A DNA stretch of 64,000 bases from an uncultured cyanobacterium (GTDB taxonomy: Bacteria > Cyanobacteriota > Cyanobacteriia > Pseudanabaenales > Pseudanabaenaceae). Positions 56,057-64,000 of the stretch are shown here, in pieces. The translations under genes and the position numbers were made by a program. A model generated the notes under the pieces. It searched no databases. It was given only the letters and a program-made list of their open reading frames with translations, and was not told the DNA's origin. The stretch covers positions 2,656,001 to 2,720,000 of the forward strand of contig OY969811.1 of assembly GCA_963703315.1 (NCBI GenBank), in the 5' to 3' direction. Position 1 is the first letter of the stretch. Each line of letters begins with the position of its first letter.

Positions 56057-56125
56057 AAAACCCAAGAAGTGAGTTGCGGCGCGAAGCGCCGCAACTCACT
56101 TCTTGGGTTTTATGTCCTAAGCAAA
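56057..56125. repeat. MITE-like/REP hairpin
   Basis: AAAACCCAAGAAGTGAGTTGCGGCGC-GAA-GCGCCGCAACTCACTTCTTGGGTTTT + ATGTCCTAAGCAAA. Confidence 0.85.
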
Positions 56126-58029: not shown

Positions 58030-58092
58030 AATCAAGGAACCAGTTTTTTGTGGCGCGGCTACGCCGCGCCACAAAAAACTGGTTCCTTGATT
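58030..58092. repeat. Perfect 30-bp-arm REP-like hairpin
   Basis: AATCAAGGAACCAGTTTTTTGTGGCGCGGC-TAC-GCCGCGCCACAAAAAACTGGTTCCTTGATT. Confidence 0.88.
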
Positions 58093-58178
58093 AAGGATTT
58101 TCAAATTTTAGTTTTGGGATTAAGGTTAAAGTGGAGTCAAGCTCACACTTTACAACCTTAAAATCAATCTGCTCTGCT

Positions 58179-58781
58179 ATGTCCTACGATACTCCGCGCA
58201 TTGCCAAAGTCCACCGTAAAACTGGCGAAACCGATGTCACTGTGATGCTAAATCTTGATGGCACAGGTAAAGGCAATATCAATACAGGTATTCCTTTTCT
58301 CGATCATATGCTGCATCAGATTTGCTCTCATGGCTTAATCGATCTTGATGTCCAAGCCACAGGTGACTTGCATATCGATGACCACCACACCAACGAGGAT
58401 GTGGGAATTGTATTAGGACAAGCGCTCGGACAAGCATTAGGCGATCGCAAAGGGATTAACCGCTTTGGTCATTTTGTTGCACCTCTTGATGAGGCTTTGG
58501 TACAGGTTGCCCTTGATTTTTCTGGTCGTCCCTATTTAGTCTATGGATTAGTCATTCCCAATCAAAGGGTAGGAACTTACGATACAGAATTGGTGAAAGA
58601 GTTTTTCCAAGCTGTCGTCAATCATGCCCAGATGACTTTGCATATCAGGCTTTTAGAAAGCGGTAATTCTCACCACATTATTGAAGCAGGATTTAAAGCT
58701 TTTGCCCGCGCCATCAAGATGGCGATCGAAGTTGATCCACGCCGTGCCAGCGTGATTCCTAGCTCTAAAGGTGTTTTATAG
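58179..58781 (+). CDS. hisB: Imidazoleglycerol-phosphate dehydratase
   Basis: [35 protein letters not shown]. Confidence 0.96.
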
Positions 58782-58899
58782 ATAAAAATGGTGCAAAGCG
58801 CCATTTTTATCCATTTGGGAATGGTGTTTTATGTTAGTGTCAGGAATTATTCGTGTTTACGATGATCTTGATGTAGATACTGTCTTGAGTACCAAAAAG

Positions 58900-59886
58900 T
58901 CAAGAGGGAATTTGAACAAAATTTGGGTCGAAAGAACGCTGAGACTTGAGAACGCCAAAGACCTGTCGTAACAGCTTGTGCATGACAGCCCCAATGACAG
59001 ACATTTTGGACTTACCCTTAGCCGTAAGGCGAGCGCAGAAAGCAGCAATCGGCAAATTATAACGACGGGCAACAATCGCAGGCATAAACAAAGCTTTACG
59101 CAAACGCGAATTACCAATTTTAGATAAACGTGGCTTACCATGAATCGAAGAACCAGATGAGAACTCACGGGGAGTTAAACCCGCAAAAGCTGCCAGTTGA
59201 TCAGCAGTATCAAAGGCAGAAATATCCCGAATTTCCGCCAGTAATATAGTTGCGGTCAGTTCAGCAATACCAGGAATAGAAGTCAACAAATCCCGTTGAG
59301 ATTTCAAATGAGGGTGTTGATCAAAGTGCTGACGGATCAATTTTTTGGTCATCTCAATTTGCTCTTTGAGAAAATCAATGTGAGCATTAATTGCCTCAAC
59401 CAAAATTGGATCAGCCGTAGCAAGACGATTCTGCTCTTGCTGCTGCATAGCAGTTAAGCTATCTAAACGATGCACCAATGCTTGTAGTTGCTCAATTTCT
59501 AATGCTGGTGGTGTCCAAAGAGCAGGTTTTAAGGCTGCACAAAATCTAGCAATGACTTTAGCATCAGCACGGTCAGTCTTTGTACGACTTAACTCACTCT
59601 TGCCAAAGGCTTTGGGACGGGATGGATTAACAATACTTACTTTGTATCCTGCCTCTACTAAGAATCTAGCTAACCCATTGCCGTAAGTGCTGGTAGCTTC
59701 CATACAACTATGCAAGTTTGTCACATTTTGAAGGTTTAGCCATTCTTGTAATTCAGCAAATCCTTCAGGATTGTTGGCAAATACTTTGCTCTTGATTTTG
59801 GCGTTGCCTTGGATTAGAGCAACATCAAATTTGGCTTTGCTGATATCTATTCCTAAAACATCATATACTTCATTGTTATTGTTCAT
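58900..59886 (-). CDS. IS110 DEDD recombinase
   Basis: GIDISK, CMEATS, KTDRAD (DEDD), SIPGI, FSSGSS serine wedge, GNSRLRKAL; 328 aa. Confidence 0.95.
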   Translation of the reverse strand: MNNNNEVYDVLGIDISKAKFDVALIQGNAKIKSKVFANNPEGFAELQEWLNLQNVTNLHSCMEATSTYGNGLARFLVEAGYKVSIVNPSRPKAFGKSELSRTKTDRADAKVIARFCAALKPALWTPPALEIEQLQALVHRLDSLTAMQQQEQNRLATADPILVEAINAHIDFLKEQIEMTKKLIRQHFDQHPHLKSQRDLLTSIPGIAELTATILLAEIRDISAFDTADQLAAFAGLTPREFSSGSSIHGKPRLSKIGNSRLRKALFMPAIVARRYNLPIAAFCARLTAKGKSKMSVIGAVMHKLLRQVFGVLKSQRSFDPNFVQIPS

Positions 59887-59921
59887 TGGGGGGCAGTCCT
59901 CTTGCTAGATTTGTCCATCAA

Positions 59922-60125
59922 GCAATCAGTGGTATTGAACTATCCTTGTGAATGCAGGTTTACCCGTTGGGCGACCTCTGATACTGTCCAGTCTTTACTT
60001 GTTTCCACTGTTTAAGCAGAGACGACTCTATCTACAAAACGGGCTTGGTGTCCCTAGGGGCAGATCGAGTTTATCTCTGCTTTTGCTTTTTCGGATTGTA
60101 GTAAAGATTTTATCCTTTACTTTTC
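59922..60125 (-). ncRNA. Predicted bridge RNA, copy 1
   Basis: Reverse complement of the copy-2 RNA region with 1 SNP; transcript ends approximate. Confidence 0.75.
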
Positions 60126-60139
60126 CTCCTAGATACAAG

Positions 60140-60311
60140 GGGCAGAGCATTCCCACAGAAATTCATGGATTTTGAGATTGTTTTAATTTGGGAATGCTCT
60201 GCCCTAAACCCGCAACGCAGGGACAATTTATCGATGAAAGCGAAGAGGGTAGAGCATTTGCGTTTCGAGATGATGGATGAGTATCAAAATCTTGGCGCAA
60301 ATGCTCTACCC
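60140..60311. repeat. Two REP-like long-loop inverted repeats forming the IS110 target locus
   Basis: GGGCAGAGCATTCCC...GGGAATGCTCTGCCC (60140-60204) and GGGTAGAGCATTTGCG...CGCAAATGCTCTACCC (60247-60311). Confidence 0.85.
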
Positions 60312-60325
60312 CTTGTATCTAGGAG

Positions 60326-60530
60326 GAAAAGTAAAGGATAAAATCTTTACTACAATCCGAAAAAGCAAAAGCAGAGATAAACTCAATCTGCCCCTAGGGA
60401 CACCAAGCCCGTTTTGTAGATAGAGTCGTCTCTGCTTAAACAGTGGAAACAAGTAAAGACTGGACAGTATCAGAGGTCGCCCAACGGGTAAACCTGCATT
60501 CACAAGGATAGTTCAATACCACTGATTGCT
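60326..60530 (+). ncRNA. Predicted bridge RNA, copy 2
   Basis: 5' hairpin GTAAAGGA/TCTTTAC; stem AAGCAGAGA/TCTCTGCTT encloses TCTGCCCCT and TGTAG; stem CAGTGG/CCACTG encloses GACAGTATC and ACAAG; transcript ends approximate. Confidence 0.8.
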
Positions 60531-60563
60531 TGATGGACAAATCTAGCAAGAGGACTGCCCCCA

Positions 60564-61550
60564 ATGAACAATAACAATGAAGTATATGATGTTTTAGGAA
60601 TAGATATCAGCAAAGCCAAATTTGATGTTGCTCTAATCCAAGGCAACGCCAAAATCAAGAGCAAAGTATTTGCCAACAATCCTGAAGGATTTGCTGAATT
60701 ACAAGAATGGCTAAACCTTCAAAATGTGACAAACTTGCATAGTTGTATGGAAGCTACCAGCACTTACGGCAATGGGTTAGCTAGATTCTTAGTAGAGGCA
60801 GGATACAAAGTAAGTATTGTTAATCCATCCCGTCCCAAAGCCTTTGGCAAGAGTGAGTTAAGTCGTACAAAGACTGACCGTGCTGATGCTAAAGTCATTG
60901 CTAGATTTTGTGCAGCCTTAAAACCTGCTCTTTGGACACCACCAGCATTAGAAATTGAGCAACTACAAGCATTGGTGCATCGTTTAGATAGCTTAACTGC
61001 TATGCAGCAGCAAGAGCAGAATCGTCTTGCTACGGCTGATCCAATTTTGGTTGAGGCAATTAATGCTCACATTGATTTTCTCAAAGAGCAAATTGAGATG
61101 ACCAAAAAATTGATCCGTCAGCACTTTGATCAACACCCTCATTTGAAATCTCAACGGGATTTGTTGACTTCTATTCCTGGTATTGCTGAACTGACCGCAA
61201 CTATATTACTGGCGGAAATTCGGGATATTTCTGCCTTTGATACTGCTGATCAACTGGCAGCTTTTGCGGGTTTAACTCCCCGTGAGTTCTCATCTGGTTC
61301 TTCGATTCATGGTAAGCCACGTTTATCTAAAATTGGTAATTCGCGTTTGCGTAAAGCTTTGTTTATGCCTGCGATTGTTGCCCGTCGTTATAATTTGCCG
61401 ATTGCTGCTTTCTGCGCTCGCCTTACGGCTAAGGGTAAGTCCAAAATGTCTGTCATTGGGGCTGTCATGCACAAGCTGTTACGACAGGTCTTTGGCGTTC
61501 TCAAGTCTCAGCGTTCTTTCGACCCAAATTTTGTTCAAATTCCCTCTTGA
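60564..61550 (+). CDS. IS110 DEDD recombinase
   Basis: Protein identical to copy 1. Confidence 0.95.
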   Translation: MNNNNEVYDVLGIDISKAKFDVALIQGNAKIKSKVFANNPEGFAELQEWLNLQNVTNLHSCMEATSTYGNGLARFLVEAGYKVSIVNPSRPKAFGKSELSRTKTDRADAKVIARFCAALKPALWTPPALEIEQLQALVHRLDSLTAMQQQEQNRLATADPILVEAINAHIDFLKEQIEMTKKLIRQHFDQHPHLKSQRDLLTSIPGIAELTATILLAEIRDISAFDTADQLAAFAGLTPREFSSGSSIHGKPRLSKIGNSRLRKALFMPAIVARRYNLPIAAFCARLTAKGKSKMSVIGAVMHKLLRQVFGVLKSQRSFDPNFVQIPS

Positions 61551-61632
61551 CTTTTTGGTACTCAAGACAGTATCTACAAGTTCGTTGTTGTAAATCGTTA
61601 AGAGTGCTTTGCGCCGCCTTTATTTCAGAATT

Positions 61633-64000
61633 TTAAGGAAAGAAATCCTTGAGAAAGAGAGATACTTCGGCGCGATCGCTAACATTAAAGAAGTCAAGGG
61701 GAACAACTCCATCCAAATGCCGACTGACGACACTAAAACCTTGTCTGGCGCGACGATAGTTGATGACTAGAGGACTATTAGCTGGTAAGGGCGATCGCCA
61801 CCAAGCATCAAAATTCGCAGCATTTGCCATGCGATCGCTCATTACCTTGACTGTTAAAGCAGCACGCTCATCAAGAAGATTACTGGTGGCAAAGACATAG
61901 GCGCGTTCTAATAACTTGTCTCGCAAGTTAGGATTTAACCAAGCGGAAATCACCATTTCTAGAGGAGTTTGGGGATTTTGCTTCACTGCTTGCAAGGCGT
62001 TAGTGTCATTGGCGATCGCCTTGGCAAGTAATATCGCTGTCGGATTTTTAGTTTGCTTGAGTTCAGCAATGGCATCAGGTTTACCAGTCCACCATCGCAA
62101 AATAGCAAGGTTCAGTGATTGATTGGAAGTCTTGCTATATATTTCCTCAAGCTTGGCAACTACCTGTGGATAAAGGGGTTGAAAAGTTGGTTCTGTCCAA
62201 ATGGGACTCGTAATAAAGATCGGATCATTAATTACCTCACGGGTCATCGCGGCGATCGCTTCAGGGGTTTTACCTTGACGCAATAAACTCACACCTAAAC
62301 CAAAATAGAGAGACCGCTTCAGAGGGACTAGTTCTAAACCACGACGGAAGTAGCTCTCAGCTTCTTGAGCAGCACTAGTTTCAGGCTGTCGAATACTTAG
62401 CCATGCGGCGGCATTATACACCGCCTCATTATTAGGATTTGTGGCGATCGCTTTTTTGATCCATGCTAAGCCATCTTTTTGCCATGCGGCGGACTGCGGT
62501 AAGTTGGGATAATTCAGGGCGAGATCCGCTAAGTTCCATCCTAATTGATAGGGATAGTAAGGCTCCCAAGGAGCTAGTTGATTAGCTAATTTGAGCCGAT
62601 CTTGAAACTTGTCAATGGAAGTGAGGGCTTCCGTGAGAGATTCCTGTTTATTGCGATCTTCCATCAAATTGCTTTTTGCCCTTGATAGATATAGGAATCC
62701 CACACTAGAGGCTTGCCAAGCGGTATTTACGGGAACTAGCCATGCGATCGCCGCGATTAAATAGACTGTGGCAACAATTGCTAACCAAAGGCGAGGCTGC
62801 TTTTGATAGCCCAAGGTAATCAATTGACGGGTATGGATTTGTCCGAGATAGGCAAGACTTGCGAAGATAATTACCAAGCCGCCGCTAATTGCAGGGACAT
62901 CAAGCTGATAGTCGGTAATTGCTAACAGACCATATCCCAGCAAACTACCGAATAAACCATAGGCGATCGCCTGATCCTGTGGATGCGTTTGCCAACTCTG
63001 AGATTTATGTAACTTGATAAATAAGGTAATGATCGCCATGAGCAAAAAGACAAAGGTAATCACTGCCCCGATTCCCAGTTCTGCCCAAAGATGCACGGGG
63101 GTGCTGTGCAACTGAAATAAAAGCTCCGCTTCACGTCCAGCCCATTGTGGACGATATTGCTGATAGAGCATCACGGCGGAACCTGCCCCTGCCCCAAAGA
63201 GCCAATGCTCCAAACCAATCCGCCAACCCGTATCTGCGGCGATCGCCCTGAATAATAGCTCTCCTGAGCCTTGAGCAGGATTAGCAAAACTTGTGAATAG
63301 TCCTGAAATCAGCGATCTCAACCGATTATTCGCCGCGATCAAAAATCCTAAAATGGCGATCGCCGCACTACTGCCCCAAAACACTAACCAGCGATTGCCA
63401 CGATTCCGTAACAGAGCGACAATGACTCCAAACAAAACAATGCCCCCTAGTCCCAGAAAGCCCCCCCGTGAACTGGTGGTATATAAATCGAGTAAACCTA
63501 AGCCGATCGCTGTCAGCCATAGTGATCGCCATATCCCCTGTTGAGCGATCGCTAAGCTAGCAAAAATTGGTAAAACCAACATCAAAAATCCTGCCACATA
63601 ATTTTGATGCCCCATCGGAGCCCAATTGCGGGATTGCAAATCGGAAAAGTCATAACTAAGATTCAGCCCCCATTGATTGAGCTTGGCAAAACTAGCTAAC
63701 TGGGGTAACCATGTTTGGGTCGTCCACAAAAATAAGCTTTCTAAAATTACAGCAAGTCCTAACAAGCCATGAAAACGCATGATTGGTAAGAGTGCCGATG
63801 TTTTTTCTACAGTTGGCTCCAGATATTCTCTAGTTTTGGGTTCTCTAGTCTGGGGTTCAACAACCTCCCTATGCAAAAAATTATTAGTTACATACAGCGC
63901 TATAAAATAACCGAATGCAGTTAGGGCATACCACATACCCTGATTGGGAAACCGTGAAAACATCGTCGATAAGCACAGCGTTACGAAGCCAGAGCCAATT
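61633..64000 (-). CDS. O-antigen ligase (Wzy_C)-family membrane protein with TPR-like C-terminus, 5'-truncated
   Basis: GHQNYVAG, TSSRGG, FGAGAG, QLHSTPVHLWAELG; frame stays open to the window edge. Confidence 0.8.
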   Translation of the reverse strand, partial: IGSGFVTLCLSTMFSRFPNQGMWYALTAFGYFIALYVTNNFLHREVVEPQTREPKTREYLEPTVEKTSALLPIMRFHGLLGLAVILESLFLWTTQTWLPQLASFAKLNQWGLNLSYDFSDLQSRNWAPMGHQNYVAGFLMLVLPIFASLAIAQQGIWRSLWLTAIGLGLLDLYTTSSRGGFLGLGGIVLFGVIVALLRNRGNRWLVFWGSSAAIAILGFLIAANNRLRSLISGLFTSFANPAQGSGELLFRAIAADTGWRIGLEHWLFGAGAGSAVMLYQQYRPQWAGREAELLFQLHSTPVHLWAELGIGAVITFVFLLMAIITLFIKLHKSQSWQTHPQDQAIAYGLFGSLLGYGLLAITDYQLDVPAISGGLVIIFASLAYLGQIHTRQLITLGYQKQPRLWLAIVATVYLIAAIAWLVPVNTAWQASSVGFLYLSRAKSNLMEDRNKQESLTEALTSIDKFQDRLKLANQLAPWEPYYPYQLGWNLADLALNYPNLPQSAAWQKDGLAWIKKAIATNPNNEAVYNAAAWLSIRQPETSAAQEAESYFRRGLELVPLKRSLYFGLGVSLLRQGKTPEAIAAMTREVINDPIFITSPIWTEPTFQPLYPQVVAKLEEIYSKTSNQSLNLAILRWWTGKPDAIAELKQTKNPTAILLAKAIANDTNALQAVKQNPQTPLEMVISAWLNPNLRDKLLERAYVFATSNLLDERAALTVKVMSDRMANAANFDAWWRSPLPANSPLVINYRRARQGFSVVSRHLDGVVPLDFFNVSDRAEVSLFLKDFFP

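What the first reader, a model, noticed from the sequence alone, without database searches (positions are those of the whole stretch)
58875..61575. Two IS110 copies inserted back-to-back in the outer arms of a REP doublet: a natural specificity test
Seen in sequence: the 172-bp spacer holds two inverted repeats, giving four related arms. The two outer arms reconstruct to AATGCTCTRCCCCTACA and both are occupied. The two inner arms read TCTGCCCTAAA (60198-60208) and, on the minus strand, TCTACCCTCTT (near 60243-60253); they lack one C and the ACA, and both are empty. Copy 2's target has A where the guide has G, which implies a tolerated rG:dT wobble. I found only two differences between the copies, both in the left end: a SNP two bases 5' of the left target guide (60066 vs 60385) and a 1-bp homopolymer indel before the ATG. 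Inference: recent, independent, guide-directed insertions into a REP safe harbour. The 1.26-kb inverted repeats could also invert the spacer.
Basis: partly seen in the sequence, partly recalled or inferred. Interest (0 to 1): 0.75.

Follow-up and report, generated by a model that had tools for sequence, protein, structure and literature searches.

The report
RNA-guided IS110 pair in REP doublet
Two copies of an RNA-guided jumping gene of a known type (IS621-like) have landed in the two ends of a small host repeat in a cyanobacterium; the arrangement is real and follows from known targeting rules, and related elements show their guides changing to match different versions of that repeat.

Summary
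Both 1.26-kb copies are IS621-like IS110 elements with a CT core and a bridge-RNA-type left end. They sit in the outer arms of a 180-bp GTAG-REP doublet of a family that also flanks the genome's single RAYT gene. An independent run holds the doubly empty allele at the predicted joints, with the spacer uninverted. The genome has 7 copies, 6 in such arms, and a second back-to-back pair. The inner arms are a poor specificity control because they lack the REP tag. Genome-wide, 5 of 10 perfect, 1 of 10 wobble and 0 of 48 other outer arms are filled. ACA is not required, and the position-4 wobble is already published for IS621. The one off-repeat copy splits a GmrSD-type gene. In relatives, 12 different guides track their targets, with signs of guide swapping. 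Two doubly filled doublets is a mild excess (post hoc p about 0.025), so 'independent' is unproven. A hairpin-stability bias in this genome did not replicate in a second one. Verdict: a new member of a known kind.

The parts
58131..58781 (+). hisB (imidazoleglycerol-phosphate dehydratase), left flank, intact
   Evidence: PF00475
58872..58874 (-). right-target remnant (ACA) of REP arm 1, displaced by copy 1
   Evidence: joint in X3 and X4
58875..60138 (-). IS110 copy 1 (1264 bp; G allele, C6)
58898..58903 (-). -35-like TTGACT in the right end of copy 1 (promoter half, inferred)
58900..59886 (-). bridge recombinase gene, 328 aa (D14, E63, D105, D108, S244)
59943..60129 (-). predicted bridge RNA of copy 1: LTG 60056-60064, RTG plus handshake 60030-60039, LDG 59980-59987, RDG plus handshake 59943-59950
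60138..60146 (-). left target plus core of arm 1 (TCTGCCC-CT), a perfect guide match
60140..60204 (.). REP 1: 16-bp stem (60140-60155/60189-60204) with a 33-nt loop
60247..60311 (.). REP 2: 16-bp stem (60247-60262/60296-60311) with a 33-nt loop
60305..60313 (+). left target plus core of arm 4 (TCTACCC-CT), G-to-A at position 4
60313..61575 (+). IS110 copy 2 (1263 bp; derived A at 60385, C5)
60322..60520 (+). predicted bridge RNA of copy 2: LTG 60387-60395, RTG plus handshake 60412-60421, LDG 60464-60471, RDG plus handshake 60501-60508
60564..61550 (+). bridge recombinase gene, 328 aa, identical protein to copy 1
61547..61575 (+). right end: -35-like TTGACT (61547-61552), left donor and CT core (61567-61575)
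61576..61578 (+). right-target remnant (ACA) of arm 4
61633..63963 (-). O-antigen ligase/TPR gene, right flank, intact, convergent with hisB

Best explanation
Two sequential, ordinary insertions of an IS621-like bridge recombinase element. The host (most likely a Pseudanabaena-like cyanobacterium) carries a RAYT-associated GTAG-REP doublet: two long-loop hairpins whose GTAG tags face outwards. Read inwards-out, each tagged arm is N4-CCC-CT-AC, which is the element's target. Inferred steps, by homology to IS621: the element forms a circle that joins its right and left ends; the left end yields a bridge RNA whose target loop pairs TCTGCCC-CT on the bottom strand and CT-AC(A) on the top strand; the recombinase joins circle and target at the CT core. 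Insertion always puts the left end next to the left target, and the two targets of a doublet point outwards. A doublet filled twice must therefore be left-end to left-end, so the back-to-back form is geometry, not a special mechanism. Only 20 arms in 16 elements fit the guide, so with six insertions some double filling is expected. Shown here: junctions, empty allele, target table, guide-target covariation. Not shown: circle, RNA expression, activity.
For: Catalytic residues and family hits: PF01548, PF02371, NF033542 over cut-off; IS621 structure 8wt6 at E 7e-73. All 7 copies have canonical LT-CT-RD and LD-CT-RT junctions. Occupancy is 5 of 10 perfect, 1 of 10 position-4 wobble and 0 of 48 other outer arms; Fisher p 5.5e-5 for 5/10 versus 0/48. 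Across 34 left junctions in 17 genome-by-guide classes with 12 distinct guides, 3.31 of 4 variable positions match against 1.71 when shuffled (0 of 100000 shuffles reach this; kin are not independent). The target-loop stem has 6 pairs with compensatory changes among 13 left ends. The handshake bases A and G and donor positions 6-14 agree with those given for IS621 (PMC11208158, passages). The empty allele is in X3. In 7 of 7 singly filled doublets of other genomes where a partner arm was found, that arm mismatches the local guide.
Against: Two doubly filled doublets are more than site-independent filling predicts (p=0.025 stratified, 0.018 unstratified; post hoc). Relatives do use sites with position 1-3 mismatches (for example 6 of 8 G044 copies with the TCAA guide), so the strict 0 of 48 is a preference in this genome, not a rule. 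The off-REP copy has two left-target mismatches. Perfect versus wobble occupancy is not significant (p=0.14). No circle junction or RNA was seen; only contigs of DNA runs were laid.
Confidence: 0.85

Rival explanations
1. Pair filling is assisted. A doublet with two permissive arms, or one that already holds a copy, is preferred, through avidity of two nearby targets or local re-insertion of a circle made next door. This modifies the best explanation rather than replacing it.
For: 5 of the 6 REP insertions lie in the 4 elements with two permissive arms (8 of 20 sites), p=0.034 stratified; two doubles, p=0.025. The only filled wobble site is partner to a filled perfect site, while wobble sites with equal or longer right-target match are empty (931376 and 4098783 in the empty-genome numbering). 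A preprint reports no target immunity and repeated local insertion for IS110 (bioRxiv 2026.08.14.744561, section 8).
Against: Only two events, tested post hoc. Pair-mates are not identical in 2 of 2 pairs. Permissive partners stay empty beside the RAYT-flanking copy and in L110/L111, which is one locus. No other back-to-back pair was found in 47 genus genomes, 400 phylum genomes or the metagenome scan, though few of these could show one. Folding gave no clear masking of one arm by the other.
Confidence: 0.25
2. A target hairpin gate, as proposed for ISPpu10, picks among matching arms. Both pairs are filled because their REP stems are the most stable.
For: In G000 the 6 filled arms fold more stably than the 14 empty permissive ones: stratified p 0.0016-0.003 with DNA parameters and 0.002-0.012 with RNA parameters over 7 window sizes. 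The filled wobble arm is the most stable of its 10 in the 84-nt window. Precedent: bioRxiv 2026.03.19.712850, sections 7, 8, 11.
Against: Not replicated in G044: 4 filled versus 11 empty arms, p=0.76. Plain stem pair counts are not significant (p 0.09-0.13). The off-REP copy has no such hairpin (-5.0 kcal/mol). The two DNA parameter sets gave identical numbers and count as one.
Confidence: 0.2
3. One insertion, then an inverted duplication by template switching or gene conversion between the outer arms.
For: The outer arms are inverted repeats 175 bp apart, and this arrangement occurs twice.
Against: Both copies have exact recombinase junctions. The arm sequence differs 4 bases from the core, and each outer arm still matches its own inner arm. 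Pair-mates differ at 2 sites and 1 site.
Confidence: 0.04
4. Assembly artefact.
For: No single laid contig spans the whole structure. The C5/C6 difference could be a homopolymer error.
Against: X1, which may be the source sample, has element depth about 7 times the flank depth and crosses both right-end junctions. Removing both copies gives the allele found in X3, a different study.
Confidence: 0.02

Closest known systems
IS621 of E. coli (IS110 group bridge recombinase; PMC11208160, PMC11208158, PMC13626964)
   Same: CT core; 9-nt left and short right target guides; target ending CCTAC in REPs; position-4 G guide against A target; donor positions 6-14 and handshake A/G as given in the text; DEDD plus Ser.
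   Different: Cyanobacterial host and a long-loop (33-35 nt) REP. In the IS621 genome-insertion assay 74.5% of sites were the wobble form; here perfect sites dominate, 5 of 10 against 1 of 10.
ISPpu9, ISPpu10, ISPa11 in REP clusters (PMC1525189, PMC12288879; bioRxiv 2026.03.19.712850)
   Same: IS110 elements placed almost only in REPs, mostly within BIMEs; ISPpu10 targets often occur as convergent pairs under 200 bp apart.
   Different: The passages read do not describe both REPs of one doublet filled. ISPpu9 uses an AG core. The ISPpu10 stem is about 5 bp with a 4-nt loop, against 16 bp and 33 nt here.
REPIN-RAYT systems and cyanobacterial GTAG-12/15/16 repeats (PMC3733652; PMC3116915 seen in listing only)
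   Same: GTAG-tagged hairpins in inverted doublets, flanking a single-copy RAYT gene on both sides; present in 43 of 48 genus genomes.
   Different: Each REP is about 70 nt with a long loop. Assignment to a numbered GTAG family was not possible because the consensus figure is not held.

Membership tests
IS110 group bridge recombinase (IS621-like) | DEDD RuvC domain plus Tnp domain with catalytic serine | tested here: met
   PF01548, PF02371, NF033542 at 244.7 bits (cut-off 140); D14, E63, D105, D108, S244
IS110 group bridge recombinase (IS621-like) | Long non-coding left end and short right end, insertion at a 2-nt core without a longer duplication | tested here: met
   About 250-bp left end, 25-bp right end, CT core at all 7 copies
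IS110 group bridge recombinase (IS621-like) | Left end encodes target- and donor-binding loops that match target and donor | tested here: met
   LTG, RTG, LDG and RDG located; two stems with internal loops, 6 compensatory pairs; guide-target covariation
IS110 group bridge recombinase (IS621-like) | Circle junction that rebuilds a promoter | tested here: inconclusive
   A -35-like hexamer lies in the right end; no circle joint among contigs of 4 DNA runs
IS110 group bridge recombinase (IS621-like) | Bridge RNA is expressed | not tested
IS110 group bridge recombinase (IS621-like) | RNA-dependent, reprogrammable recombination | not testable with these tools
   Needs a reporter or in vitro assay
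REPIN-RAYT | GTAG-tagged palindromes in inverted doublets, dispersed and intergenic | tested here: met
   74 profile hits at about 38 loci, 68 outer arms; none of 16 permissive elements lies inside an ORF of 100 aa or more
REPIN-RAYT | Single-copy RAYT gene flanked by the same repeats | tested here: met
   Sole PF01797 match at G000:C1:348969-349250; NF047646 at 85.7 bits (cut-off 80); doublets on both sides
REPIN-RAYT | RAYT mobilises or cleaves the repeats | not testable with these tools
   Needs a biochemical assay
Composite transposon carrying the spacer | The IS-spacer-IS unit moves as a whole, with the same spacer at several sites | tested here: not met
   The two pairs have different spacers, and the hisB spacer is native to its locus

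The most novel reading that the evidence does not exclude
A cyanobacterial IS621-like lineage keeps its donor and the invariant REP tag fixed but retunes four guide bases to follow the variable stems of host REP families. It swaps guides between co-resident copies by short gene conversion or in trans, and preferentially fills both arms of a doublet once one is permissive or filled.
Probability: 0.3. Interest if true: 0.62.

Novelty: new member of a known kind. Interest (0 to 1): 0.4.

Why it matters
It extends REP-targeting by IS621-like bridge recombinases to cyanobacteria. It also gives a small natural specificity table (perfect, wobble and other arms in one complete genome) and a natural guide series in near-identical backbones. 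The contrast between six intergenic REP copies and one off-target copy that splits a probable defence gene illustrates the safe-harbour idea. If pair filling or guide swapping holds up, it bears on how bridge RNAs are reprogrammed in nature and on whether neighbouring targets cooperate. The core biology is already known.

Tried and rejected
Empty locus in GTDB relatives: 19 hisB loci (87% nucleotide identity at best) carry neither the ligase gene nor the transposase within about 1.5 kb, and one has a partial REP, so they were uninformative. Other back-to-back pairs: hits in G008 and G058 are unrelated palindromes; 5 hits in 400 phylum genomes are near the control rate (2) and have no transposase nearby; the metagenome scan gave 0. 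Fragmented assemblies would hide such pairs. Hairpin-stability gate: not replicated in G044. Arm masking in the empty doublet: inconclusive. Orientation of flanking genes: no pattern, since one pair lies between convergent genes and the other between tandem genes. Right-target extension beyond AC: weak, 15, 9, 8 and 5 of 25 at positions 3-6. Rfam: only sub-threshold hairpin hits. Earlier scan notes: none bore on this. Paper search returned irrelevant papers and is weak evidence of absence.

Full report
Observation. The window is G000:C1:2656001-2720000 of a single-contig 4.57-Mb genome. Transposase relatives at 94-97% identity lie mostly in records titled Pseudanabaena, and the GCGATCGC motif is abundant (its name HIP1 is recalled). 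The host is therefore most likely a Pseudanabaena-like cyanobacterium. Removing the elements restores TCTGCCC-CT-ACA and TCTACCC-CT-ACA.

The structure is real and recent. Run X3 holds one 752-nt contig that skips both copies at the predicted joints and keeps the spacer colinear. X4 holds a contig that skips copy 1; it ends before arm 4. X1, which may be the source sample and so is not independent, shows element depth near 70 against flank depth near 10 and crosses both right-end junctions. No laid contig spans the whole structure. The genome has 7 copies with only two variable columns. The A at 60385 is private to copy 2; among all fetched left ends that base is G except in copy 2 and L082.

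The element. The protein matches PF01548, PF02371 and NF033542, and the solved ISCro4 and IS621 recombinases (E 3.5e-76 and 7e-73), with D14, E63, D105, D108 and S244 in place. The left end holds a left target guide TCTGCCCCT, a right target guide ending GTAG, and donor guides matching the element's own ends. An alignment of 13 left ends folds into two stems with internal loops; 6 of 34 pairs show compensatory change. The passages of PMC11208158 give donor bases 6-14 and handshake bases A81 and G166, and these agree with this element. Expression, circle formation and activity are inferred from IS621, not shown.

The target. The spacer belongs to a repeat family with 74 profile hits at about 38 loci (my count) and 68 tagged outer arms. 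Each half is a GTAG tag plus a 16-bp stem and a 33-35 nt loop. The genome's only Y1 transposase is a RAYT (NF047646 over cut-off) with such a doublet on each side, so 'REP doublet' is correct. The doublet pattern occurs in 43 of 48 genus genomes and the transposase in 12 of 48. Since both tagged arms point outwards and IS110 inserts in a fixed orientation, a doubly filled doublet must be back to back.

Specificity. The inner arms lack the tag, so their emptiness is expected. The useful test is genome-wide: 5 of 10 TCTGCCCCTAC, 1 of 10 TCTACCCCTAC and 0 of 48 other outer arms are filled. Fisher p is 5.5e-5 for 5/10 versus 0/48, but 0.14 for perfect versus wobble. The position-4 rG:dT pair is published for IS621 (PMC11208160, passage). 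The seventh copy lies outside any REP, with two left-target mismatches and the longest right-target match among filled sites. It splits a 598-aa gene with a GmrSD_N domain and HEC-05-like hits. None of the 16 permissive REP elements lies inside a long ORF.

Relatives. Near-identical elements (mostly 88-93% nucleotide identity) and more distant ones carry 12 different left guides, mostly varying the first four bases. Across 34 left junctions in 17 genome-by-guide classes the guide matches 3.31 of those 4 target bases against 1.71 after shuffling (0 of 100000 shuffles). Duplicate flanks were dropped, two loci whose left end the parser missed (L078, L079) are absent, and kin are not independent. 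Mismatches at positions 1-3 are common in G044 (6 of 8 copies), and metagenome loci are looser still, so the strictness in G000 is not universal. L022 has the backbone of one subfamily, a three-base guide patch of the other, and a site that fits the first subfamily's guide. L074 sits in a site that exactly fits the guide of L082, a more distant element in the same assembly. Both point to guide conversion or guidance in trans (inference). Trans action of bridge RNA is shown for IS621.

Double filling. A second pair lies at G000:C1:3075044-3077747 with its own spacer. Four elements have two permissive arms: two are doubly filled, one singly and one not at all. Given 5 of 10 and 1 of 10, the chance of two doubles is 0.025. 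This is post hoc and rests on two events. Pair-mates are not identical, permissive partners stay empty at the RAYT flank and in L110/L111, and no other pair was found. Filled arms fold more stably in G000, as a preprint on ISPpu10 would predict (bioRxiv 2026.03.19.712850, abstract and sections 7, 8, 11), but G044 did not replicate this. The spacer here is uninverted against X3. At the second pair, the flank words follow their arm types, which weakly suggests the same.

What is known. IS110 targeting of REPs is established (PMC1525189 and PMC12288879, passages). The bridge mechanism is in PMC11208160 (passages and section 7), PMC11208158 (passages) and PMC13626964 (abstract and section 5). Copy-out and half-match insertion are in bioRxiv 2026.08.31.748434 (abstract and section 8), and lack of target immunity in bioRxiv 2026.08.14.744561 (passages and section 8). 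Cyanobacterial GTAG repeats are in PMC3733652 (passages; figure not held). PMC5581495 (passages) added nothing specific. Searches listed no paper on a doubly filled doublet or on this lineage. The supplements of PMC1525189, which I did not open, and the closed preprint supplements may show such cases.

Verdict. Real, well explained, and a new member of a known kind. What remains of interest is the genome-wide table, the natural guide series with signs of swapping, and a modest, unreplicated excess of pairs. Interest 0.4.

Noticed in passing
G000:C1:3075044-3077747 (L060, L113): A second back-to-back pair of the same IS in another REP doublet; both arms are perfect guide matches.
   Followed up: yes
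G000:C1:347314-349517 (L112): An IS copy sits in the doublet just upstream of the sole RAYT gene. A 531-aa transposase-like ORF starts about 140 bp beyond its right end; its family was not checked.
   Followed up: partly
G000:C1:3868925-3870187 (L114): The only off-REP copy splits a 598-aa GmrSD_N, HEC-05-like gene.
   Followed up: yes
L022 (G044:C1:4538390-4542373): Chimeric element: guide patch from one co-resident subfamily in the backbone of the other; its site fits the backbone subfamily's guide.
   Followed up: partly
L074 and L082: L074's site matches the guide of the more distant element L082 in the same assembly, not its own; likely guidance in trans.
   Followed up: partly
L022, L023, L031, L044, L053, L054, L039, L043, L028: Relatives target other repeats ending in the same CCC-CT-AC tag (short GCAG/ACAG, CAAA and CCCG types), so several such repeat families coexist in the genus.
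   Followed up: partly
G000, IS-free numbering 3976110-3977033: Tandem array of six REP units about 131 bp apart, all with TTTG or TATG arms and empty.
   Followed up: no
window 58030-58092 and 56057-56111: A second family of perfect palindromes with a 3-nt loop, common in the genus.
   Followed up: no
window 58778-58814: Hairpin directly after hisB (17-bp arms), possibly a terminator shielding copy 1.
   Followed up: no
window 60168: X1 shows G>A in one contig at depth 10, in the loop of REP 1; it may come from another repeat copy.
   Followed up: no
run X4, record 25: A 1376-nt contig holds the IS (1291 letters laid, 5 differences) and then runs on unlike this locus, so probably a copy in a different REP.
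   Followed up: no
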